This document shows positions 8-31,200 of a stretch of 31,200 bases of DNA, in pieces. The stretch's first letter is position 1, and every line of letters begins with the position of its first letter. A program made the translations under genes and the position numbers. The DNA lies in IMG/VR virus record IMGVR_UViG_3300045988_101844, positions 1 to 31,200 of that record; one strand, 5' to 3'. The notes under the pieces were generated by a model. It was not told the origin of the DNA. It worked only from the letters and a program-made list of their open reading frames with translations, and did no database searches. Source of the stretch: a virus.

Positions 8-793
8 ATGAATTGGAAACCAACAAACATTAAAGGATATTCAGTTAGTGACGAAGGTCAAATAAAGAATGAACTAACTGGAAAAATATTATCTCCATTT
101 AAGAATAATATGGGATATTATTTAGTAAGCATACAAGATAAAAAGTATCTTGTACATAGATTAGTAGCAGAGGCGTTTTTAAATAAACCTAATAAATGTA
201 ATATAGTAGAACATAAAGATGATGATCCCACAAATAATTGTGTAGATAATCTTATGTGAAGTACTCAGAAATTGAATTTAAATAGGCAAGGAAGGCTTGA
301 AAAGTTAAAAAGGTATTATCAGTCCAATGAATGAAAAGAAGCTAGAAAAAAGGCTTTAGAAACAATGAAAGCAAATGGATTTAAAAAGACTAAATCAGAT
401 AAGCAAAAGGCTAAAGAAGCGGCCAGATTAGATAGAATATCTAAAGAAAGAGAGAATATAAGACCTACTCTCGACCAACAATATGATGCGTTTATTAATC
501 CTTTAATTGATTTACTTAAATCTGGATATAGTTTAAAGAGAGCTGCACAATATTTTGGAATAAATGATACTACTGGCATTACTTATTTTTCTAAAAGATA
601 TTATGAAGAAACAGGAATTAAACTTATTACATATAAGATTAAAAAATCGTCGTTTTCAAATGCAGAAAAATTAATGAATAAAATTAAAGAATTATATAAT
701 CAAGGTTTAACTGTAGAGGAAATAAGTGAAGAAGTAAACAGATCAGTAAATATTGTTAATAAATATATAAAACTATGGAAGATTCATATTTAA
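8..793 (+). CDS. HNH homing endonuclease (NUMOD4-like N-terminus, HNH_3-type core, C-terminal HTH region), 261 aa under code 4
   Basis: Track ORFs 8..259 and 365..793 share a frame. They are joined by in-frame TGA at 257-259 and 332-334 with no TAA/TAG between. Reading TGA as Trp gives HKDDDPTNNCVDNLMW-STQ, the canonical HNH_3 NLxW motif. TAA stop at 791-793. Confidence 0.85.
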
Positions 794-957
794 ATAGAAT
801 TGCGGATATTAAAGAAACAATTAAACAAACAGAAGAGTATATTAAAGAATTAGATAAATGAATACTCGAATGTAAAGAAGCTACTAAAAGATTAGGAGAT
901 ATTATAGATAGAGTATTAGCACAAAGAGATTTTACATTTATTTCAAAATTTGATTAA
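775..957 (+). CDS. hypothetical small protein, 60 aa (code 4)
   Basis: ATG at 775, in-frame TGA at 859-861 (ELDKW-ILECK), TAA at 955-957. Overlaps the upstream gene end by 19 nt. No recognisable domain. Confidence 0.4.
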
Positions 958-1590: not shown

Positions 1591-2043
1591 TTATATAATA
1601 GTAAATTTCTGTCGTCTTTGCATCCCGTCTTTATTCTTTAATCCCAAGTGTATTCAACTAGCTATACCATTCCTAGGCCTTTCATATATCAACTGGTCGA
1701 AATCAAATTCTTCAATAGCTTCAGCAATCCAACTTTGGAATACTTTCATATTACCATTAATTGGAGATATATCTGCTGCATACCCTGTTAAATGAGCAGA
1801 AGTTGAGGATCCTCCTACTGCTTTATTAAGCTCCTTATTCCTAAAACCAGAGGAAATCCTGATGCCTGCATTGCCAAGCTGATTGTCATCACAATACTTT
1901 GCCCATCTCTCTCTTATTGGGTCTAAAAGCTTCTCGACCAACTCTATCAGGTGCTCTGTTATACTCTCATCTGGAGTGTTATTTATATGCTTAATTGAAG
2001 CAGTATCAGATCTTGTTAATTCTTCGAGTGTGAAATACTTCAT
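1591..2043 (-). CDS. endolysin, peptidase M15-type cell-wall peptidase, 150 aa (code 4)
   Basis: Track ORF 1654..2043 (SGFRNKELN, SAHLTGYAADI) ends at TGA 1654-1656. Read-through gives NGIAS-W-IHLGLKNK..., restoring the M15 C-terminal W-x-H motif. TAA at 1591-1593, 2 nt from the next gene start. Confidence 0.85.
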
Positions 2044-3286: not shown

Positions 3287-3787
3287 TTATATATATTTAA
3301 ATGTTAATCCGCTAGCAGTTTTAGCTCTATGAGTTAATACATTAGATATAGACGTTCTAGTTATATTTAATTGTTTAGCTGCCTCCTTAACTGATTTATA
3401 ATAATTTCCATTACTATCAATAATAGGTCTAAATTTAGCTTCCGATATATGCTTTTTATGCCCTTCAGATAACTTACGACCTTTTACACTACCACCTTCT
3501 CCTCCAGGTTTTAAATTTAAACATCTGGCATCACAACTTCAGCAATCTGAAAGAATATCTTTCTCCCGTATACAATTATTATACTCAGTATCATTAAATT
3601 CTAATATAACCTTATTGTATGTTACTCCCTCTATTTTGCCATATCTTTGATAATATTTTTTAAGTATTATACCTGAACCTGCATAATCATCATTATAAGG
3701 ATCATTAGATGTTTTATGTTTACCTATATAATATTTACCTTTTAGATTACCGACTAGTGGCTGTATTTCATAAATATAGTAGGTCAT
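3287..3787 (-). CDS. GIY-YIG homing endonuclease, 166 aa (code 4)
   Basis: Track ORF 3539..3787 (YYIYEI...GKYYIGKH, GIY-YIG N-terminus) ends at TGA 3539-3541. The same frame continues W-SCDARCLNLKPGGEGG...NGNYYKSVKEAAKQLNITRTSISNVLTHRAKTASGLTFKYI (typical C-terminal DNA-binding module). TAA at 3287-3289. Confidence 0.85.
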
Positions 3788-3789
3788 AA

Positions 3790-4479
3790 TTACTTACTCT
3801 TTTTATTATTACTTGAAGGGAAATCATAAGCTCTTTGAAGAGGTCCCTCTCCAGGTTTAACGCTCCATCCTTTACCTCTTGCTCCACCAAGCCAAATATT
3901 GCAAGATGAGCTAGAGTAAAGATTAGGAAACATATCCTTTAATGGCTTATATGTATAAAGCTCAGGGAATTCGTTATAATATGTAATTATAAAGTCCTGT
4001 AAACGAGTCTTAAAGAAATCCGCCTTATCTCTATAATACTTCTTAATTTGATTTACTTGACTTGCTTCAGCAGCAATATCTTTCTCATCATCAGTTCTCA
4101 TAACTCCAAAATTACCAAGCTTATAAGATATAGGAATTACTATCTCGCTAAGTACTTGATAAAGTAAATAAGGCTGAACATAATAGTCTAATAGCTCTTT
4201 ATATCTGTAGTTATCAGAATCATCAATAGAATCACTTGGAAGTGGCTCAGGAGGTTCTATTGGATGAACTGGAGTATGAGGATCAATCCAATTAATACAT
4301 TTCTTTTGTAATGCTTCTAATAGCTTAGTACCAATAGTTGACTGAAGCTCTACATCTTGGGCACTTGTGATGGCTGCTTGTAAATATTTACCCGATATAT
4401 TGTTATCTAATGTAGAATTTGACTTTATATAGTCTTCTGAAATAAGCAGTACATTTCTATAGTTAAGTTGTTCCATCAT
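3790..4479 (-). CDS. hypothetical structural protein, possible head-tail adaptor, 229 aa
   Basis: Intact track ORF with TAA stop, sitting between two homing endonuclease genes downstream of the portal. The adaptor call rests on position and weak gp6-like N-terminal character only. Confidence 0.5.
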   Translation of the reverse strand: MMEQLNYRNVLLISEDYIKSNSTLDNNISGKYLQAAITSAQDVELQSTIGTKLLEALQKKCINWIDPHTPVHPIEPPEPLPSDSIDDSDNYRYKELLDYYVQPYLLYQVLSEIVIPISYKLGNFGVMRTDDEKDIAAEASQVNQIKKYYRDKADFFKTRLQDFIITYYNEFPELYTYKPLKDMFPNLYSSSSCNIWLGGARGKGWSVKPGEGPLQRAYDFPSSNNKKSK

Positions 4480-5071
4480 AAATAAATTTATTGTTTTTAT
4501 AAGGTCTATTTTCTTTTAAAGCTAAATATAATCCAGAACGTTCTCCATTAACTGATTTAACAGCTTCTTTCATTGAATTATATCTTGCAATAAAATTCCC
4601 ATTCATATCAAATCTTAATATAGGCTTAACTCTAGTAATTCGTCCTTTGGAAGCATTTCCAATTTTAATAAGTGTTTCCAAAGTATAGATTCCTTTCTTT
4701 CCTTTATTCCAGGGTGTTTTACCTTTTTTAGAATTTGACATTTTTGCTCTACTCTCATTAGAAAAAGAATACCCGTATGTACCTTCTCCTCCTGATGTTA
4801 TATTGTAACCATTTTCAGGAGTATTTGTTTTATATTTATGTATCAATATTCTCTCTAACGTCTTAGCGCAAGCTTCTGGTAAATTATCTTTAATTATGAT
4901 ATGTTCAAATCCATCTCAGCTATATTTTTGTATCGCTTTATAAAAGTAAGCTTGAGTAGAGTATCCATATCCATTTTTTCACCTAGCTTGCGCACTTTGT
5001 CCAGTAATGCCAAAATATAGCTTATTGTTATACTTATTTATATGGCAATAAACAGTATAATTATTCAACAT
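4463..5071 (-). CDS. GIY-YIG homing endonuclease with NUMOD3-like repeats, 202 aa (code 4)
   Basis: Track ORF 4463..4846 is only the C-terminal part. The same frame upstream is open to ATG 5071 through TGA at 4979-4981 and 4916-4918. This gives YCHINKYNNKLYFGITGQSAQAR[W]KNGYGYSTQAYFYKAIQKYS[W]DGFEHIII, with both TGA at Trp positions conserved in the family. Overlaps the portal end by 11 nt and the next gene start by 17 nt. Confidence 0.9.
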
Positions 5072-6152
5072 TTTGTTTGCTATCTTCTTGTCCATTTGGA
5101 GTTAAGCTAAAAGGAGTTATAGTTATTGAACCTTTCATTCCAAATATCTTATCAAATGTATCTACTATTTCGACCTGAATTGGTCTAACTACTGTACGAT
5201 TATAAAGTTTAAAAGCTTCATTAAATTCTTGTTCGTTGAATCCACTTGAGTAGTTAAGGCCAAAAAGTACACTATTAGCTCTAAATGCGCAGAATATCTG
5301 TTCTCTTGTTCTATCAGATAAAGCACTATATTTCTCATCAAAATCATCAGAATCTAAACGCTCAATAGTAGTCTTATTTGTTTCATCATCATTATATGAA
5401 ATAAGAACTCTACCAGCATTTTGAAATCCTGAGAATTTCTCATTAATATTCATCTCAATCTCTTCTTTAACTTCATCTGTAGGCTGTCCATTATTAAAGT
5501 TAATGATAAGATTGCCCATAAATCCGTTATGAAGAGAATTTAGATGGAACTCATTAATATTCTTCTCAGTTTCGCAAGATAGGATAGCTGCACCATAAAC
5601 AGGGACTGGATATACTTTTCTTGTTATATAGCCCTTATTATAAACAACACTTGTAGGATTATCATCTGAATAATTAAATTTTGGATATTTGATAGCTTTA
5701 ATAGACCAAGCAGACCAATCATCGGCATAATAGAATACTTCATTCTTTTCATCAGAACGAATCTTCATAAAGTCAAGATGATATATTTCTGAAACTCTAC
5801 CTACCATATCTCTAATTATTTGTAAAGCATATCCTCCAAAAATCATCTTATCTTTAGATACTTTACGCATAATATCCATAATAGTCTCACCTTTCTTATT
5901 TACAGTTACTTCAAATCCTGGTGCATTACATATAACATCATTACCAACAATAAAGTCAGCAGTACCATTAATGATAGATTGAAGAGTAGCTACATTTAAA
6001 TATAAATCCCATAAATATACAGGATAGCGATTATCTTCACCCCAAGAAATATAGTCCTTACCTCTAACTTTACCTTCTACTGGCAATACGATGTTTGATA
6101 CAATTACTGGATCAATTGCACTTAATTGTACTTTTGTTTTATTTTCGCTCAT
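5061..6152 (-). CDS. portal protein (HK97-family-like), 363 aa
   Basis: Track ORF 5061..6209; I prefer the start at ATG 6152 (MSENKTKVQ). Portal-like pattern: FSGFQNAGRVLISYNDDE...IERLDSDDFDEKYSALSDRTREQIFCAFRANSVLFGL. No TGA codons. Confidence 0.7.
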   Translation of the reverse strand: MSENKTKVQLSAIDPVIVSNIVLPVEGKVRGKDYISWGEDNRYPVYLWDLYLNVATLQSIINGTADFIVGNDVICNAPGFEVTVNKKGETIMDIMRKVSKDKMIFGGYALQIIRDMVGRVSEIYHLDFMKIRSDEKNEVFYYADDWSAWSIKAIKYPKFNYSDDNPTSVVYNKGYITRKVYPVPVYGAAILSCETEKNINEFHLNSLHNGFMGNLIINFNNGQPTDEVKEEIEMNINEKFSGFQNAGRVLISYNDDETNKTTIERLDSDDFDEKYSALSDRTREQIFCAFRANSVLFGLNYSSGFNEQEFNEAFKLYNRTVVRPIQVEIVDTFDKIFGMKGSITITPFSLTPNGQEDSKQNVE

Positions 6153-25313: not shown

Positions 25314-25955
25314 CTATTCAGATAATTCAGCTTCATTTTTGAGTAAAAGGATTAATCGTCTCGTCTGTATTAAGCTCTCCAGAAGTTTCCTCCTTTCCAG
25401 TTTGTCCTTGGTTTTCCTTAGTCTCTTCTTCATCTCCCTTTCCGAAGAGTGTAGGGTACTCAGCGTTGATACTTGCAATAAGTTTACAAAAAAAAACATT
25501 ATGTCTGAAAATATATCTATTGTTAGATGGGTATTTAAGAATTCTGCCTCATCAATAGGGTCATAATCTTCTCCATACTTCTTTCCATTAGGTAGCAAGA
25601 AACAAGCTGCTAGATTAGGCATAAAATCATCATACTGCTTATAAAAATTCTGAAAGTCAATATATTGACTGGCCGTCATCTTATTAACATTAAAAAAGAC
25701 TTTATATTCTTTATTACCAATATTATAAGTAGTTTCTGGAGTTTTTGGCTTATATGGAGTCTCTATAAATTTAAGATTATTTATAAATTCTTGCAGCTTG
25801 TTTACTTCCATATTAGTTATATCTTCTATAGGTATATCACTAAGTACGGATACCATAGCTAAATTCATATCTAATTCATTTTCCCAGTCTTTTCGTATTA
25901 TCTCAAACAGTCTTTTATAATGAGATAAATCCATTTCATTCCAATTCTTTATCAT
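25314..25955 (-). CDS. hypothetical protein, 213 aa
   Basis: Intact track ORF. Its ATG shares a base with the TerL TAA (TAATG). TAG stop at 25314-25316. Basic, helical C-terminus. No confident family assignment. Confidence 0.6.
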   Translation of the reverse strand: MIKNWNEMDLSHYKRLFEIIRKDWENELDMNLAMVSVLSDIPIEDITNMEVNKLQEFINNLKFIETPYKPKTPETTYNIGNKEYKVFFNVNKMTASQYIDFQNFYKQYDDFMPNLAACFLLPNGKKYGEDYDPIDEAEFLNTHLTIDIFSDIMFFFVNLLQVSTLSTLHSSEREMKKRLRKTKDKLERRKLLESLIQTRRLILLLKNEAELSE

Positions 25956-27238
25956 TATTTAATTGCAATATTATAAGTTCCTTTATTTGTATTTAAAGCA
26001 TCATAAGCTAACATTAAAGATATACAAGTATCATCATTAAATCCAGATGGAGCATTATATGATACATTTCCAGTCTTTGGATTATAACTGGCTTCATATA
26101 GTCTTAATTCATTTAATAGTTTATCATCCTTTAAAATACCAATCTTTTCGTTTTCTAATGCCGCTTGTAGCTTATTTACAATAGCTGCCTTAGACTTATT
26201 AGTAGTTAAAAACTTAACTATCCGTAATTTAGGATTCCTTTTTACAAGAATATCATAAAACACTGAACCTATTGAGTTTTGTTCGACTTGAACTATCTTT
26301 ATAAATCCCTGATACTCAGTAAATATATTTGTCAGTAAATCAACTTGTTCTGTTGGAGTTTTGTCGTTAAAATACTTTATAAAGACCATCTGCCCATTTT
26401 CATTTAAAGCTGTAATACAAGTATAGTCTTTACCAGAACCAGTAGCCCAGTCAACTCCAATATAGAGATTATGATATTCAGGTTTTTTATCAATTATACA
26501 GTTAGCTATATTATTAAATAGGCAACCATCATCATCTGCAAACTCTCCAAGATATTCAGTTCTAAATTTATTTTTGGAGGTTGTAAGGCGATACATTTCA
26601 AGTTTATCCTCACTTAACAGCATAGAAGTATCTTCTAATGCTCAATCAAAGGATTGATAATATTTACTAAAATTACCATCAAAGCCCTTTTTAAAGCATT
26701 CATAAAAGAATCCTTCTCTAAACCTTGGAGTACTAATTATAAGTATTGGAGCATTCCATACATCAGCGATAGGTGTTAAAATTTCGTATACTTCATCTGA
26801 TATATAAGCTGCTTCGTCAATTACTAATATTCCACTAACTGTAAATCCTCGTAATGAATCTTTTTGCTCAGCAGATTTAAATAGTATTTCACTCCCATTA
26901 GTAAATTCAATCTCAAGCAAAGATTCATTCTTTTTCTTAATAATATCTGTGCCATCTAATGCCTTTACTAACTCTTTAAATATCTTTCTGGAGTTAGTAA
27001 GAGTTGGTTCAACAATACAGCTAATACTTCCAGGATAGTTAATTGAAAATCGTAATAGTTCATTTTCTGCCATAAAGGATTTACCACATTGTCTCTTTGC
27101 TTTTACAGTAAATATTTTTCCAGACCTATAAGAGTGCTCTAAAGCAGTATGTACCTTTAATTGATAGATAAATGGGCTATATCCTTTATATATTTTTGTC
27201 ATTGTTAATTGGATCTCCAAATTTAAACTGGACTTCAT
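25955..27238 (-). CDS. terL: terminase large subunit, 427 aa (code 4)
   Basis: Track ORFs 26642..27238 (ATPase; Walker A KAKRQCGKSF, Walker B ILVIDEAAY) and 25955..26623 (nuclease half; IGVDWATGSGKDYT, GFNDDTCISL) share a frame. They are joined by one TGA at 26642-26644 (YQSFD-W-ALEDTS). An alternative start at ATG 27202 would cut the overlap with terS to 17 nt. Confidence 0.9.
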
Positions 27239-27629
27239 TATTCTGAATAGCTACAATAGTCTCAGGTTGATTTAATCCAAACATACTATTTATAGTCTTA
27301 ATAATCTCATTTGCAGCTCTAATATCTCCCTTACTAATAGCAGTATCCAGTAATGATTCCAATCTTGATAATTGTATATGTCTAAGATTTTTTATAAGGT
27401 TATCATTCTTTTCAGCAATTATCTTATAAGCTTCTCCAATATATCTTGCAGCCGTTGATTGGCTTACATTATATTTACTTTGAAGTTCTTCACTTACTTT
27501 ATTCCTTGACCATCCTTTATTAAATAACCTTGCAGCATAAAGATATTTAGTCTTTACTTCGTCTATTTGTTCCTTTTCTACCTCTGCCTTTTTCGGTCTC
27601 CCTACTTTCTTCTTTATTTGCTCCTTCAT
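27186..27629 (-). CDS. terS: terminase small subunit-like DNA-binding protein, 147 aa
   Basis: Track ORF 27186..27635 starts at TTG; ATG is at 27629 (MKEQIKKKVGRPKK). N-terminal HTH-like segment, position immediately upstream of TerL. Confidence 0.6.
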   Translation of the reverse strand: MKEQIKKKVGRPKKAEVEKEQIDEVKTKYLYAARLFNKGWSRNKVSEELQSKYNVSQSTAARYIGEAYKIIAEKNDNLIKNLRHIQLSRLESLLDTAISKGDIRAANEIIKTINSMFGLNQPETIVAIQNNEVQFKFGDPINNDKNI

Positions 27630-27879
27630 CCTCAATAGTTTTTAGTTTTTCAACATATTCAAAGTAGTAAACTCCAAGTCTCTTTATAAGGTTAAGAACA
27701 CAAGTTCCGCAGTTTATATTCATTTTATATGGCTGCTCTATTAGTTCCTCATAAATAGCTCTCATCCTTTCAGTATCTTCTTTTTGGATGTTACGACAAT
27801 AGTTAGCTCTAACAGCACATTTAAACCTATTATCGAATTTACTTAAATATTCATACTGTTCTTTTGTTAATTCTTTCAT
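27547..27879 (-). CDS. hypothetical Cys-containing protein, 110 aa
   Basis: Intact track ORF with CAVRANYC and CGTC pairs (possible zinc binding). The last 83 nt overlap terS in another frame. Confidence 0.45.
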   Translation of the reverse strand: MKELTKEQYEYLSKFDNRFKCAVRANYCRNIQKEDTERMRAIYEELIEQPYKMNINCGTCVLNLIKRLGVYYFEYVEKLKTIEDEGANKEESRETEKGRGRKGTNRRSKD

Positions 27880-28228: not shown

Positions 28229-28467
28229 AATCTCTCTCTTATTTGTTTAATAAATCTCTGAATAGTCGTATGACTAATTCCCAGAATCTTCCCAACTTCT
28301 CTATAACTTCGATATTCAGCATATAAGATAATTATGGTCTTATCTGCTCTATTTAATGCCTCTCATTTCGGATAAATTGCAAGTAATCTATCATCCATCT
28401 CTGTAAAGGTATCTATTTCAAAGTTATACTCAATTAATAAATCATCAATATTAATCTTCTGCTTCAT
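28222..28467 (-). CDS. small HTH protein (sigma-70 region 4 / LuxR-like), 81 aa (code 4)
   Basis: Absent from the track because of TGA at 28363-28365. ATG 28467, TAA 28222-28224. C-terminal HTH: RADKTIIILYAEYRSYREVGKILGISHTTIQRFIKQIRERL. Confidence 0.55.
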
Positions 28468-28966
28468 AATACTTTCATTTAAATCCTTTTGAAGTTAATT
28501 GTCTTCCTTTTAAACAGGCAATAATGTTTGATATAATAAATCCATTTCTCTTTAATTCATTTATTGAAGGTCATACTTTAATAATATTGTTATCTATATC
28601 TAACTGCACAACTCGCTTGGAACTTTTATTATTCTGGCAGTTTTTAACAAAATTATTAATTCTATTGCCGTAAGTAAGATTATAAGACCTTGTACATCAT
28701 TCTAAGTTTTCTATAACATTATTGCATTTATTTTCATCAATATGATTTATTTCACAATAACTGTTAGGATTTGGAATAAACGCTTCTGCTACTAGCCGAT
28801 GTATATAAAAATTTTTTCTACCTTGTTTATTATATAAACAAACAAAAGAATATCCACTATTGGATCGCATAGGTTTAATAACTCCTCTAACACTTTTAAC
28901 TCTGCCTAAAGTGCTAATCTGGTAGTTCGGGTAATTCGTTATATTCTTCCAGGTCTCCATCATCAT
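28451..28966 (-). CDS. HNH homing endonuclease (NUMOD4-like N-terminus, HNH_3 core), 171 aa (code 4)
   Basis: Track ORF 28697..28966 ends ...NHIDENKCNNVIENLE at TGA 28697-28699, completing NLEW-CTRSYN. Further TGA at 28571-28573 and 28475-28477 (KGFK[W]KYYEAED). TAA at 28451-28453. Confidence 0.85.
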
Positions 28967-30082: not shown

Positions 30083-30127
30083 AATTTATAAAGTTTAATT
30101 GTTAATATTATGTCTTTTATTGTAATA

Positions 30128-30158
30128 CAAAAGTAATAAAATATTTTTAATTCTCAAA
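30128..30158 (-). promoter_or_regulatory. Bacteroidota-type promoter (-33 TTTG, 19-nt spacer, -7 TAnnTTTG)
   Basis: The minus strand reads TTTG (30158-30155), 19 nt, then TACTTTTG (30135-30128). This lies 45 nt upstream of ATG 30082. Confidence 0.55.
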
Positions 30159-30179: not shown

Positions 30180-30926
30180 TTAAAAATCAAAAATATCTTT
30201 ATTATCATATTCAATATCCTGCTTTCTATCTAATCCAAATAAACCAGCAAGTATATCATTGTAGATATTATTAGCCTTTGGACTTAAATAAAGCTTATTC
30301 TTTACAAAATAAACTGTCTGCTTATATAATTTATTATCTGAAGGAGTTGAAAGAACATTCTTAATAGTTCTAATATTTTGCTCATTTAAATGTACTACTT
30401 CATTCTTAATAAATTCTTCATATCTTATCTGGTAACCATCTTCTACTTTATCTAAGTAAAATCCATATTCTTTCAGCTTATTAAGCTTATTATTTAACAA
30501 ATTATATGTAATACCTAATTCTGAGGCTATATCTTTCTTATTTAATCTAATTTTTAAAGTATCATCAAATGCTAAACTTCTAATTCTTAAGGCAAGTCCT
30601 AATAAATTGAGATCCTTATCAATATTATTTATTACAAAATCCAATTTAACCATAAAAAATGTATTTATTATTGATTTATAGGTATTAGTCTTTATAACAT
30701 TACCATTATCTTTAATTATAACTTTAGTAGAACAGTCTAATAACTCTGATTTATAAAGATGACTATTCATCTTCTTAATATAATCTACAGAGCATTTTAA
30801 ACACTTTGCAAAGTAATCTCTTGTGTATACTTTATTCTGAAGCTGTATATAAGACTGTAATGCCATATAATATGCTTCTTTATCATTCAAATCTTTTACT
30901 CGTTTGTCAATTTTTAAATAAATCAT
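30180..30926 (-). CDS. putative DNA-binding (winged-helix-like) protein; possible replication initiator or regulator, 248 aa
   Basis: Intact track ORF. HTH-like segment LNKKDIASELGITYNLLNNKLNKLKEYGF. Sits directly downstream of the repeat-rich region 30927..31161. Function is inferred from context only. Confidence 0.5.
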   Translation of the reverse strand: MIYLKIDKRVKDLNDKEAYYMALQSYIQLQNKVYTRDYFAKCLKCSVDYIKKMNSHLYKSELLDCSTKVIIKDNGNVIKTNTYKSIINTFFMVKLDFVINNIDKDLNLLGLALRIRSLAFDDTLKIRLNKKDIASELGITYNLLNNKLNKLKEYGFYLDKVEDGYQIRYEEFIKNEVVHLNEQNIRTIKNVLSTPSDNKLYKQTVYFVKNKLYLSPKANNIYNDILAGLFGLDRKQDIEYDNKDIFDF

Positions 30927-30937
30927 AGTGCTAAAAT
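30927..30937. repeat. 11-nt arm of a long-range inverted repeat (partner at 31088..31098)
   Basis: agtgctaaaat abuts the ATG at 30926. Its exact reverse complement attttagcact lies at 31088-31098. Confidence 0.85.
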
Positions 30938-30970
30938 TTTTCTGGAACGAAAGCTCGAAGAGCTGAGTCC

Positions 30971-31004
30971 TATAGTATTACTTTTATTATAGTATTACTT
31001 TTAT
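30971..31004. repeat. perfect tandem direct repeat, 2 x 17 nt (tatagtattacttttat)
   Basis: Units at 30971-30987 and 30988-31004 are identical. Iteron- or operator-like. Confidence 0.9.
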
Positions 31005-31008
31005 TAAT

Positions 31009-31046
31009 GGGTACTGAATCGACAGGTCGGTCGGGTACTGAATCGA
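31009..31046. repeat. direct repeat, 2 x 14 nt (gggtactgaatcga), with starts 24 nt apart
   Basis: Copies at 31009-31022 and 31033-31046, separated by caggtcggtc. Locally GC-rich in an AT-rich context. Confidence 0.9.
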
Positions 31047-31052
31047 TATATG

Positions 31053-31087
31053 TCTAAAAATAGGGTTTGGGTAGCTAATCCAAACCC
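31053..31087 (-). terminator. rho-independent terminator/attenuator
   Basis: Stem gggtttgg (31063-31070) pairs with ccaaaccc (31080-31087) around a 9-nt loop. The minus strand continues tatttttag. Confidence 0.6.
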
Positions 31088-31098
31088 ATTTTAGCACT
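31088..31098. repeat. 11-nt arm of a long-range inverted repeat (partner at 30927..30937)
   Basis: attttagcact, the exact reverse complement of 30927-30937. Confidence 0.85.
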
Positions 31099-31108
31099 AA
31101 TAAAAGTA

Positions 31109-31126
31109 GTGATTACTTCTAATCAC
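31109..31126. promoter_or_regulatory. palindromic operator-like site GTGATTA-N4-TAATCAC
   Basis: Perfect 7-bp half-sites at 31109-31115 and 31120-31126, 4 nt downstream of the -7 box of promoter 31131..31161. Confidence 0.5.
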
Positions 31127-31130
31127 AATG

Positions 31131-31161
31131 CAAAGATAACATTATTTTTTTAATCTACAAA
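31131..31161 (-). promoter_or_regulatory. Bacteroidota-type promoter (-33 TTTG, 19-nt spacer, -7 TAnnTTTG)
   Basis: The minus strand reads TTTG (31161-31158), 19 nt, then TATCTTTG (31138-31131). Confidence 0.55.
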
Positions 31162-31200
31162 ACATTTACAAGAAAAAATTAACTTTTTATTAAAAATATT

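What the first reader, a model, noticed from the sequence alone, without database searches (positions are those of the whole stretch)
30927..31161. Compound control region: promoter, operator palindrome, terminator, two repeat families, and an 11-nt long-range complement to the start-codon region of the downstream gene
Reading the minus strand from 31161 downward, the elements are:
- a Bacteroidota-type promoter (31161..31131)
- a perfect palindrome GTGATTA-N4-TAATCAC (31126..31109), 4 nt after the -7 box
- the 11-mer AGUGCUAAAAU (31098..31088)
- a terminator hairpin with a U-run (31087..31053)
- 2 x 14-nt direct repeats (31046..31009)
- 2 x 17-nt perfect tandem repeats (31004..30971)
- the exact complement AUUUUAGCACU (30937..30927), immediately 5' of the ATG of the 248-aa DNA-binding protein (30926)

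This layout allows two readings that are not mutually exclusive.

First, the promoter and terminator could produce a roughly 70-nt leader or small RNA. Its 11-mer could pair with and occlude the translation initiation region of the downstream gene, either in cis after read-through or in trans.

Second, the direct repeats could be iterons or operators for the adjacent winged-helix-like protein, marking a replication origin or an autoregulated switch.
Basis: partly seen in the sequence, partly recalled or inferred. Interest (0 to 1): 0.65.

Follow-up and report, generated by a model that had tools for sequence, protein, structure and literature searches.

The report
Phage early leader and origin-like cassette
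The stretch is the control region in front of a gut phage's probable replication-initiator gene: an early promoter, a short hairpin-capped RNA ending in a terminator, and paired plus tandem DNA repeats arranged like a replication origin, a layout kept in at least nine related phage lineages but not yet tested in the laboratory.

Summary
The repeats exceed chance: a 12-nt inverted repeat occurs in 1 of 300 shuffles and a 17-nt direct repeat in 0 of 300.

The window is a nearly complete ~31 kb phage genome from human-gut metagenomes. It reads TGA as Trp, has no Shine-Dalgarno sites and no tRNA genes. The 248-aa protein belongs to a small unnamed family with two tandem winged-helix domains (model pLDDT 92). 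Some of its relatives match phage families annotated as replication initiators or DnaD-like helicase loaders.

Nine lineages keep the same cassette directly upstream of this gene:
- a terminator-like hairpin (HP2);
- two direct repeats 23-24 bp apart in seven lineages, with lineage-specific sequence;
- two AT-rich tandem 17-20-mers;
- a GC-rich hairpin with heavy covariation (HP3);
- the ATG.

Bacteroidota-type promoters (TTTG-N19-TAnnTTTG) bracket the gene in six lineages.

The palindrome behaves like an RNA 5' stem (G-C, G.U, A-U variants) rather than an operator.

The 11/12-mer pairing with the start region is replaced by a different 20-bp pairing in an 85%-identical relative. It shrinks to 9-10 bp in the commonest variants and is absent in distant lineages.

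Best reading: an origin and autoregulation cassette with an attenuated leader. This is a new variant of a known kind, of moderate interest.

The parts
31131..31161 (-). Early promoter P1 of Bacteroidota type: TTTG, 19 nt, TATCTTTG.
   Evidence: It is one of only two matches to TTTG-N17-21-TAnnTTTG in the window. Both lie on the gene strand in intergenic DNA. The same motif sits at the equivalent position in L014, L146/147, L158, L159 and L161. The transcription start has not been mapped.
31109..31126 (-). HP1: a 7-bp stem with a 4-nt loop at the predicted 5' end of the P1 transcript.
   Evidence: The third pair is G-C in the window, G.U in L134 and A-U in L001-type genomes. In L152 a 3-nt insertion extends the stem to 9 bp. 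Unrelated short hairpins occupy the same place in L014, L135, L158 and L162.
31088..31099 (-). 5' arm of the long-range helix (TAGTGCTAAAAT), directly abutting HP2.
   Evidence: It is a perfect 12-nt complement of 30926-30937. In L013 a different 20-nt arm at the same place pairs with that phage's own start region.
31095..31108 (-). Leader segment TACTTTTATTAGTG, complementary to CATTAATAAAAGTA at the start of the first 17-mer (30996-31009). It overlaps the 5' arm by 5 nt.
   Evidence: (I15) and 52 give 8 of 2000 shuffles at or below the observed energy. Two uncompensated changes occur in L150, L153 and L155, so it is probably not functional.
31056..31087 (-). HP2: an intrinsic-terminator-like hairpin (8-bp stem, 9-nt loop, then TATTTTT), preceded by an A-tract.
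   Evidence: Fold energy is -12.8 kcal/mol with z = -4.4. L013 has a U-A to C-G compensation plus a G.U pair. A hairpin at this position is present in all nine lineages, and a U-run follows it in eight.
31009..31046 (-). Two exact 14-nt direct repeats (TCGATTCAGTACCC), 24 bp start to start. They are candidate binding sites (iterons) for the winged-helix protein.
   Evidence: D10. The 14-mer is unique in the genome. Repeat pairs with different sequence but 24-bp spacing (23 bp in L162) occur at this position in L146, L158, L159, L161 and L162, and as imperfect copies in L013.
30971..31004 (-). Two perfect tandem 17-mers (ATAAAAGTAATACTATA), 88% A+T. They are a candidate DNA-unwinding element or a second set of binding sites.
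   Evidence: D8. Tandem AT-rich repeats with a 17-20 nt period and a core like AATAC or GATATAC occur in all nine lineages.
30944..30970 (-). HP3: a GC-rich two-part hairpin (GGAC-UC-AGCUC-UUC-GAGCU-UUC-GUUC).
   Evidence: It is present in all nine lineages. Every pair is canonical, with 2-4 pair types per position. G.U changes to A-U in L013 and L153.
30926..30937 (-). 3' arm of the long-range helix (ATTTTAGCACTA). It ends on the A of the start codon.
   Evidence: (I6). In the predicted ensemble, the unpaired fraction of positions -15 to +6 is 0.60 without the 5' leader and 0.30 with it in the window variant.
30180..30926 (-). Gene for a 248-aa protein with two tandem winged-helix domains and a C-terminal helical domain. 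It is the probable replication initiator or helicase loader and probably binds the repeats.
   Evidence: The AlphaFold model has pLDDT 92. The window protein has only a weak HTH_Crp_2 match, below Pfam's cut-off. 11 PHROG matches among the 27 members, none by the window protein itself, fall on families annotated as DnaD-like helicase loader or replication initiation protein. Predicted viral structures named 'Replication initiator protein' match at E = 3e-6.
30128..30158 (-). Second promoter P2 (TTTG, 19 nt, TACTTTTG), directly after the gene's stop codon. It presumably drives the remaining genes on this strand.
   Evidence: It is 73% identical to P1 over 41 nt (D2). P2-like promoters follow the gene in L146/147, L158, L159 and L161. 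An inverted 14/17 copy of the 17-mer overlaps its -7 box.

Best explanation
This is the control region of the first gene on the long transcription strand of a ~31 kb phage. It doubles as an origin-like cassette.

1. The early promoter P1 fires. Its transcript starts with a protective stem-loop (HP1).
2. After about 70 nt most transcripts stop at the intrinsic terminator HP2. This gives a short RNA and limits or insulates expression of the downstream gene.
3. Downstream of HP2 lie DNA sites for the gene's own product, a tandem winged-helix protein of a family related to phage replication initiators and helicase loaders. These sites are two 14-bp repeats 24 bp apart, followed by an 88% A+T block of two tandem 17-mers and then a GC-rich hairpin (HP3). 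The arrangement matches the minimal lambda-type origin of two iterons plus an adjacent AT-rich tract.
4. Protein bound at these sites would start replication. Because the sites lie between P1 and the gene, bound protein would also hinder read-through and so autoregulate the gene.
5. In read-through transcripts, or in trans from the short RNA, the 12 nt just 5' of HP2 can pair with the 12 nt ending on the start codon and damp translation. This extra layer is specific to the window's own clade.

What is shown: all elements are present, their order is conserved, the hairpins covary, and the protein has a tandem winged-helix fold.

What is inferred: promoter and terminator activity, protein binding to the repeats, origin function, and translational repression.
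For: - Element coordinates and excess over chance.
- The window is a near-complete phage genome with no polymerase, primase or helicase gene recognised, so a host-dependent initiator is needed.
- The protein model (pLDDT 92) shows two winged-helix domains. 15 of 27 family members match wHTH Pfam models. 11 PHROG matches among the 27 members fall on families annotated as 'DnaD-like helicase loader' or 'replication initiation protein'. Predicted viral structures named replication initiator or replisome organiser match the model.
- The cassette HP2, paired repeats, tandem AT-rich repeats, HP3, ATG is kept in nine lineages with 25-85% protein identity.
- The paired repeats change sequence in both copies together and keep 23-24 bp spacing in seven lineages. 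This is the behaviour of a protein site on duplex DNA.
- The hairpins change by compensation. Wobbles in the stems were read by eye from the sequences: 5 G.U and no A.C on the sense strand. This is the behaviour of RNA on this strand.
- P1-like and P2-like promoters bracket the gene in six lineages.
- In lambda, two iterons plus the adjacent AT-rich region are the minimal unit competent for unwinding (PMC7466680, read).
- Long-range pairing: 12 bp in the window (2 of 2000 shuffles) and a different 20 bp in L013 (0 of 2000). It lowers predicted start-site accessibility in both.
- The cumulative GC skew has its minimum at this intergenic region, although this is confounded with the switch in gene direction.
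Against: - The window protein itself matches no replication family in Pfam, PHROGs or NCBIfam. Its structure matches only generic tandem winged-helix proteins among solved structures, not RepE, pi or RepA.
- There are only two paired repeats, and no DnaA box was seen.
- L014 and L135 lack the 24-bp repeat pair, and L014 has no U-run after HP2.
- No promoter is recognisable between HP2 and the gene, so how the gene is transcribed depends on unmeasured read-through.
- The long-range helix is 10 or 9 bp in the commonest genotypes, with little predicted effect, and is not above chance in L014, L135, L159 and L161.
- The host is unknown. Two scans of GTDB genomes found nothing, so calling the promoter 'Bacteroidota-type' rests on the motif and on the absence of Shine-Dalgarno sites.
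Confidence: 0.55

Rival explanations
1. The region is a transcriptional switch only. The winged-helix protein is a regulator, such as an early repressor or activator, that binds the repeats as operators between P1 and its own gene. The region has no origin function.
For: - The window protein's only direct sequence matches are to regulator-type HTH models (Crp, MarR, Lrs14).
- One database source names a cluster member a 'DtxR family transcriptional regulator'.
- The sites lie between a promoter and the gene, and an inverted partial 17-mer overlaps the -7 box of P2.
Against: - Family members match phage replication-initiator and helicase-loader families and predicted viral initiator structures.
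- The phage otherwise has no recognisable replication gene.
- The order iterons, AT-rich block, hairpin is origin-like.
- The 14-mer occurs nowhere else in the genome.
Confidence: 0.2
2. The 11/12-mer complementarity has no function. HP2 is simply a terminator or insulator, and the arm sequences match by chance or by local duplication history.
For: - The pairing shrinks to 10 bp in 17 of 26 close relatives and to 9 bp in L154, without compensation.
- Predicted accessibility of the start site hardly changes in those variants.
- Other start regions in the genome reach -15.1 and -14.7 kcal/mol with the same leader.
- Four distant lineages show nothing above chance.
Against: - In L013 both arms are replaced by unrelated sequence, yet they form a 20-bp duplex covering the start codon (0 of 2000 shuffles).
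- The window 12-mer is reached in 1 of 300 regional shuffles.
- In both, the 5' arm sits at the same place, just 5' of HP2.
- L146, L158 and L162 give marginal signals (20-51 of 1000 shuffles).
Confidence: 0.25
3. The whole ~200-nt leader is one structured regulatory RNA. The repeats act as RNA, for example as binding sites for the protein on its own mRNA, and not as DNA sites.
For: - The full leader folds with z = -4.1, and the long-range helix closes a multi-branch domain.
- All three hairpins covary in the RNA sense.
Against: - The paired repeats keep a 24-bp spacing while their sequence changes completely. Such fixed spacing points to a site on duplex DNA and is not explained by RNA pairing.
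- Winged-helix proteins are typically DNA binders.
- In three lineages an upstream small gene replaces P1 and HP1, and HP2 terminates that gene.
- No Rfam family matches.
Confidence: 0.1
4. The 12-bp inverted repeats are recombination sites of an invertible DNA switch, as in Bacteroides invertons, that flips the ~150-bp cassette.
For: Inverted repeats flank a ~150-bp segment next to a Bacteroidota-type promoter.
Against: - All 26 close-relative loci, and L013, have the same orientation.
- No recombinase gene was recognised in the window.
- After inversion HP2 would sit directly in front of the ATG.
- The repeats are only 9-10 bp in most genomes.
Confidence: 0.04

Closest known systems
Bacteriophage lambda origin (ori-lambda) with O initiator
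   Same: - Direct repeats that would bind the initiator lie next to an AT-rich tract.
- In lambda, two iterons plus the AT-rich tract are the minimal unwinding unit (PMC7466680).
- The initiator gene is at the same locus.
- The phage depends on the host replisome.
- Nearby transcription may influence initiation.
   Different: - The cassette lies upstream of the gene, not inside it.
- There are two repeats rather than four to six.
- The protein gives no match to the lambda O family or to any named replication family.
- A terminator and a GC-rich hairpin bracket the cassette.
Iteron-controlled theta plasmids (RepA of pPS10, RepE of F, pi of R6K)
   Same: - The initiator is about 250 aa with two winged-helix domains (known for these plasmid proteins from the literature; not checked here).
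- Direct repeats lie roughly two helical turns apart next to the rep gene.
- The initiator could repress its own gene by binding near its promoter.
   Different: - No sequence or structure match to these proteins appears among the top solved-structure hits.
- The palindrome at the promoter behaves as an RNA stem rather than as an inverted-repeat operator.
- The element is in a phage, not a plasmid.
Antisense-RNA and leader control of rep genes (CopA/CopT of R1, pT181 attenuation) and self-inhibitory 5' leaders (rpoS)
   Same: - A short, hairpin-bounded RNA or leader segment is complementary to the translation start region of an initiator gene.
- A terminator lies in the leader.
   Different: - The complementary segment is encoded on the same strand, upstream of the target, so complementarity is not automatic and must co-evolve, as seen in L013.
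- The pairing segment is a linear linker, not a kissing loop.
- The effect is weak in most variants.
Lambda oop RNA
   Same: A short RNA of about 70-80 nt, made from its own promoter and ended by an intrinsic terminator, lies next to the phage origin and initiator region. This comparison rests on my own knowledge and was not checked here.
   Different: - oop is antisense to cII.
- Here the short RNA is on the sense strand, upstream of the initiator gene.

Membership tests
Bacteroidota sigma-A promoter (-33 TTTG / -7 TAnnTTTG) | A -7 element TAnnTTTG with a -33 TTTG about 19-21 nt upstream. | tested here: met
   TTTG-N19-TATCTTTG at 31161-31131. A second copy lies at 30158-30128. These are the only two in the window.
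Bacteroidota sigma-A promoter (-33 TTTG / -7 TAnnTTTG) | The motif is located upstream of genes and conserved at the equivalent position in relatives. | tested here: met
   Both copies are intergenic and on the gene strand. The same motif lies before and after the homologous gene in L014, L146/147, L158, L159 and L161.
Bacteroidota sigma-A promoter (-33 TTTG / -7 TAnnTTTG) | The host is a member of Bacteroidota. | tested here: inconclusive
   No relative was found in 185,579 GTDB species genomes. Absence of Shine-Dalgarno sites (2 of 33 genes) fits Bacteroidota. TGA = Trp without a suppressor tRNA is unexplained, although only 35% of TGA-recoded gut phages had a detectable one (bioRxiv 10.1101/2021.08.26.457843).
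Bacteroidota sigma-A promoter (-33 TTTG / -7 TAnnTTTG) | A mapped transcription start. | not testable with these tools
   No RNA data are available.
Intrinsic (Rho-independent) terminator | A GC-rich stem-loop immediately followed by a U-run. | tested here: met
   An 8-bp stem with 5 G-C pairs is followed by UAUUUUU. Fold energy is -12.8 kcal/mol with z = -4.4.
Intrinsic (Rho-independent) terminator | The structure is conserved through compensatory change. | tested here: met
   L013 has GGGTCTGG/CCAGATCC. Hairpins occupy the same place in all nine lineages, and a U-run follows in eight.
Intrinsic (Rho-independent) terminator | Termination activity. | not testable with these tools
   This needs mapping of RNA 3' ends.
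Iteron-type replication origin | Direct repeats at about two-helical-turn spacing next to an AT-rich tract. | tested here: met
   The 14-mers are 24 bp apart and lie next to 34 bp of 88% A+T. The spacing is kept in seven lineages.
Iteron-type replication origin | An adjacent gene for an initiator of a recognised replication family. | tested here: inconclusive
   The window protein matches no such family. Among the 27 family members there are 11 matches to PHROG families annotated as replication initiators or helicase loaders, and predicted viral initiator structures match the model.
Iteron-type replication origin | The initiator binds the repeats and the region supports replication. | not testable with these tools
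   This needs binding and replication assays.
Rep_3-type plasmid initiators (RepE, RepA, pi) | Sequence or fold similarity to the family. | tested here: not met
   There is no Pfam Rep_3 match. The top 50 solved-structure matches are generic tandem winged-helix proteins, with E no better than 3e-3 and TM-scores normalised to the query of 0.16-0.30.
Antisense-RNA control of rep translation (CopA/CopT type) | The regulator RNA is transcribed from the strand opposite to its target. | tested here: not met
   Both arms are on the same strand, 150 nt apart. The region may work like this system but is not a member.
Described RNA families (Rfam 15) | A match to any covariance model. | tested here: not met
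   There is no credible match in the window region (best E = 0.22, with bit scores far below the gathering thresholds) or in six related loci.
Invertible promoter switch (inverton) | Both orientations occur in populations and a recombinase is nearby. | tested here: not met
   All 26 close-relative loci have one orientation. No recombinase was recognised.

The most novel reading that the evidence does not exclude
A same-strand leader or short RNA co-evolves its pairing segment with the start-codon region of the phage's own initiator gene. It would be a 'sense-encoded' counterpart of plasmid copy-control antisense RNAs, sitting on a previously undescribed family of phage origins served by a new tandem winged-helix initiator family in TGA-recoded gut phages.
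Probability: 0.25. Interest if true: 0.6.

Novelty: new variant of a known kind. Interest (0 to 1): 0.45.

Why it matters
Small uncultivated gut phages that read TGA as tryptophan have no mapped origins or early control circuits.

This locus gives a concrete cassette that is conserved by comparison: promoter, attenuated leader, paired repeats, AT-rich repeats, hairpin, initiator gene. The cassette could be used to locate origins and early promoters in this phage group. It also assigns a function to an unnamed protein family of about 39 clusters. If the initiator and origin work in a Bacteroidota host, they could become parts for a replicon.

The co-evolving leader/start-codon pairing would be an unusual way to control an initiator gene if it proves functional.

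Tried and rejected
- A scan of viral contigs with the 15-mer TGGATTAGCTACCCA returned at least 119 stretches, in line with my rough estimate of the number expected by chance. Only the two contigs already known were relevant.
- Scans based on the protein added few loci. In viral, metagenome and genome collections they found only L134 and L135. The deeper alignment was too divergent to scan with.
- A terminase scan of GTDB genomes for a prophage or host found nothing.
- No phage record resembles the region at the DNA level.
- Rfam gave nothing credible.
- The first structure model, from four sequences, was poor (pLDDT 49). The model from 27 sequences was used instead.
- The second pairing, between the leader and the first 17-mer (14 bp), looked like a switch partner for the start-site pairing. 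It is broken by two uncompensated changes in L150, L153 and L155 and is absent in L014 and L135, so it was dropped.
- Reading the 17-mers as -7 boxes on the opposite strand, or their TATAAT junction as a sigma-70 -10 box, was considered. The final G of the -7 motif is missing and the motif is not conserved, and no -35 element is present. This question stays open only as 'internal promoter unknown'.
- An automatic alignment of HP3 failed. Pairs were counted on a manual structural alignment instead.
- The 600-nt insert of L013, flanked by a duplicated leader and terminator, is not unusually structured (z = 0.18). The seed of the duplicate has no clear target.
- The small-terminase reading of the protein was rejected, because a separate 149-aa gene sits directly before the large terminase gene.
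Full report
**Observation.** Reading the minus strand from 31200 to 30100 confirms every element at the coordinates given:
- TTTG-N19-TATCTTTG at 31161-31131;
- the palindrome GTGATTA-GAAG-TAATCAC at 31126-31109;
- AGTGCTAAAAT at 31098-31088;
- a hairpin, GGGTTTGG, 9-nt loop, CCAAACCC, followed by TATTTTT, at 31087-31056;
- two exact 14-mers 24 nt apart, at 31046-31033 and 31022-31009;
- two exact tandem 17-mers at 31004-30971;
- ATTTTAGCACT at 30937-30927, directly before the ATG at 30926.

The complementarity is in fact 12 nt (31099-31088 with 30937-30926).

In 300 dinucleotide-preserving shuffles of 30900-31200, a 12-nt perfect inverted repeat occurred once, a 17-nt direct repeat never, and a 14-nt direct repeat once. 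The leader/start-region duplex (-16.6 kcal/mol) is the best of the start regions of 32 genes. It is matched by 0.4% of sliding windows of the genome and by 2 of 2000 shuffles. The promoter-to-terminator RNA folds with z = -4.4 and the full leader with z = -4.1. In the full-leader fold the 12-bp helix stacks on the terminator stem.

**Context.** The window is a nearly complete phage genome: large terminase, portal, tail genes, an M15 endolysin and several homing endonucleases. Related contigs are 30-32 kb, and their sample names suggest human-gut metagenomes.

TGA is a sense codon. The terminase has one in frame, and treating TGA as sense raises long-ORF coverage from 6348 to 8562 codons. At conserved motifs it stands where Trp is expected: 'NLEW' in HNH nucleases and 'SWIHL' in the M15 peptidase. 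There is no tRNA gene and essentially no Shine-Dalgarno use (2 of 33 genes).

Nearly all genes lie on the minus strand. A short divergent block (8-957, plus strand) starts on the other side of the intergenic region, so the finding sits in the divergent early region. The motif TTTG-N17-21-TAnnTTTG occurs only twice in 31.2 kb. Both copies are on the minus strand, one before the 248-aa gene and one just after its stop codon.

**The protein.** The 248-aa protein has only a sub-threshold HTH_Crp_2 match and no PHROG or NCBIfam family. An exhaustive profile search found a small family of 39 clusters at 50% identity.

With 27 of these sequences, AlphaFold gives a confident model (pLDDT 92) of two winged-helix domains plus a helical C-terminal part. 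Solved structures give only generic tandem winged-helix matches (RPC62, TFIIIC, MarR-like). None of the iteron-plasmid initiators appears among the top hits. Predicted viral structures named 'Helix-turn-helix domain protein' and 'Replication initiator protein' match at E = 1.7e-6 to 1.6e-5 with TM 0.42-0.53.

Among the 27 family members there are 11 matches to PHROG families annotated as 'DnaD-like helicase loader' or 'replication initiation protein'. No polymerase, primase or helicase gene was recognised in the genome. The most economical reading is that this protein is the phage's initiator or loader. That is an inference from weak homology.

**Comparative anatomy.** I retrieved 26 loci that are 96-100% identical in the protein, one at 85% (L013), and eight further lineages at 20-41% identity to the window protein in the family alignment. 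L138 and L142 are the most distant; their upstream regions are also rich in repeats and hairpins but have a different layout.

Nine lineages share one cassette directly upstream of the gene: the window, L013, L014, L135, L146, L158, L159, L161 and L162. The cassette runs in this order:
1. A stable hairpin (HP2, -9 to -19 kcal/mol), followed by a U-run in eight lineages.
2. Two direct repeats of 10-14 nt. Their sequence is lineage-specific (TCGATTCAGTACCC, ATTTTACCCCC, GAAAAAAGTGCGG, TTACCCGAAG, GTAATTTACCCGTA, AAAAAAACTAAG), but their spacing is 24 bp in five lineages, 23 bp in one, and 24 bp with imperfect copies in L013. L014 and L135 instead have GTAC-centred elements 18 nt apart.
3. Two tandem AT-rich repeats with a 17-20 nt period and a shared core.
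4. A GC-rich hairpin (HP3). Every pair is canonical in all nine lineages, with 2-4 pair types per position.
5. 9-20 nt, then the ATG.

Upstream of HP2 there is either P1 plus a short non-coding leader with a small 5' hairpin (window, L014, L135, L158, L162), or P1 plus a 62-68-aa gene that HP2 terminates (L146, L159, L161). P1-like and P2-like promoters bracket the gene in six lineages.

**RNA or DNA.** The two classes of element evolve differently.

The hairpins change by compensation:
- The third pair of HP1 is G-C (window), G.U (L134) or A-U (L001 type). A 3-nt insertion in L152 lengthens the stem.
- HP2 in L013 has a U-A to C-G change plus a G.U pair.
- The outer stem of HP3 alternates between G.U and A-U.
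- Reading the stems by eye, I count five G.U appositions and no A.C on the sense strand. This is expected for RNA of this strand and not for a duplex-DNA palindrome.

The paired repeats behave differently. Both copies change together and the spacing stays fixed, which is the behaviour of a protein site on duplex DNA.

So HP1 is better read as a 5'-terminal RNA stem than as an operator, and HP2 as a real terminator. The repeats are better read as DNA sites.

**The long-range pairing.**
- In L013 the cassette from HP2 to HP3 is about 90% identical to the window, but the sequence 5' of HP2 and the sequence before the ATG are both different. They still form a 20-bp duplex covering the start codon (-17.9 kcal/mol, 0 of 2000 shuffles).
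- Against this, in the commonest genotype (17 of 26 close-relative loci) the helix is 10 bp, and in L154 it is 9 bp, with no compensation.
- In the predicted ensemble, the unpaired fraction of positions -15 to +6 is 0.60 without the 5' leader and 0.30 with it in the window, and 0.65 versus 0.45 in L013. In the L001 type it changes only from 0.46 to 0.42.
- In more distant lineages the signal is marginal (L146, L158, L162: 20-51 of 1000 shuffles) or absent (L014, L135, L159, L161).

I therefore treat it as a real but clade-specific and probably modest layer of control. Whether it acts in cis after read-through or in trans from the short RNA cannot be decided here.

A second candidate pairing, between the leader and the first 17-mer (14 bp), is broken by two uncompensated changes in three genomes and was dropped.

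**Mechanism proposed.**
1. P1 starts a transcript capped by HP1.
2. Most transcripts end at HP2, giving an RNA of about 70 nt.
3. Read-through yields the mRNA of the winged-helix protein.
4. The protein binds the 14-mers, and possibly the 17-mers. It opens the adjacent AT-rich block to start replication and, as a roadblock between P1 and its own gene, limits its own synthesis.
5. The 12-mer pairing further damps translation in this clade.

The architecture parallels lambda, where two iterons plus the adjacent AT-rich tract are the minimal unit competent for unwinding (PMC7466680). It also parallels iteron plasmids with two-winged-helix initiators. Membership in either protein family was tested and not met.

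The cumulative GC skew has its minimum at this region, but that is confounded with the switch in gene direction.

**Rivals.**
- A pure transcription-factor switch (0.2).
- A functionless 12-mer (0.25; this rival concerns one step of the main explanation only).
- An all-RNA element (0.1).
- An invertible switch (0.04; all 26 loci have one orientation and no recombinase was recognised).

**Verdict.** The kind of system is known (initiator gene with an iteron-type origin and an attenuated leader). The protein family, the cassette and the same-strand co-evolving leader/start-site pairing are new variants. Interest is moderate, at 0.45.

Noticed in passing
whole window, e.g. 25955-27238 (-), 8-793 (+), 1591-2043 (-): TGA is read as Trp throughout, including in early genes. 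There is no tRNA gene in the window and no Shine-Dalgarno use, yet the promoters look Bacteroidota-type. How a host with the standard code would decode TGA, or which TGA=Trp host has such promoters, is unexplained. The 248-aa gene itself has no TGA and no Trp codon.
   Followed up: partly
window 31200 / 1; L144 and L145 position 1: Two other contigs, from two further samples (ERZ28625566 and ERZ1031291), start at exactly the base where the window ends, 274 nt upstream of the ATG. Circularly permuted relatives carry about 56 more nt of AT-rich sequence there. It could be a physical genome end. More likely it is an assembly break at the junction with the variable divergent gene, which is an HNH gene in most genomes and a MUG113/T5orf172 gene in L005 and L150.
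   Followed up: partly
window 3287-3787, 4463-5095, 28451-28966, 8-793; loci L003-L012: Homing-endonuclease genes (HNH_3, NUMOD, GIY-YIG) come and go between genomes that are otherwise about 97% identical in the 248-aa protein.
   Followed up: no
window 30127-30143 (+): An inverted 14/17 copy of the tandem 17-mer overlaps the -7 box of the second promoter, P2. By count alone it is within chance, but its position suggests that the same protein might also act at P2.
   Followed up: partly
L013 100-800: L013 carries a second copy of the leader-plus-terminator unit about 660 nt upstream of the first. About 600 nt of non-coding sequence with somewhat higher G+C lies between them. There is no Rfam match, no unusual fold (z = 0.18) and no clear target for the duplicate's seed.
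   Followed up: yes
L146 1147-1353, L159 1152-1349, L161 1170-1358: In three lineages the short non-coding leader between P1 and HP2 is replaced by a 62-68-aa gene. The product looks by eye like a small helix-turn-helix protein, and HP2 serves as the gene's terminator.
   Followed up: no
window 31077-31091 (-): In the window variant only, the 3' end of the 12-mer together with the start of HP2 creates a 4-codon ORF (ATG GGT TTG GAT TAG). It is absent in the L001-type genomes, so it is probably meaningless.
   Followed up: yes
window 27186-27635 (-): The 149-aa protein encoded just before the large terminase gene matches PHROG 645, annotated 'Rnase E' (E = 2e-6). By its position it is more likely the small terminase subunit.
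   Followed up: no
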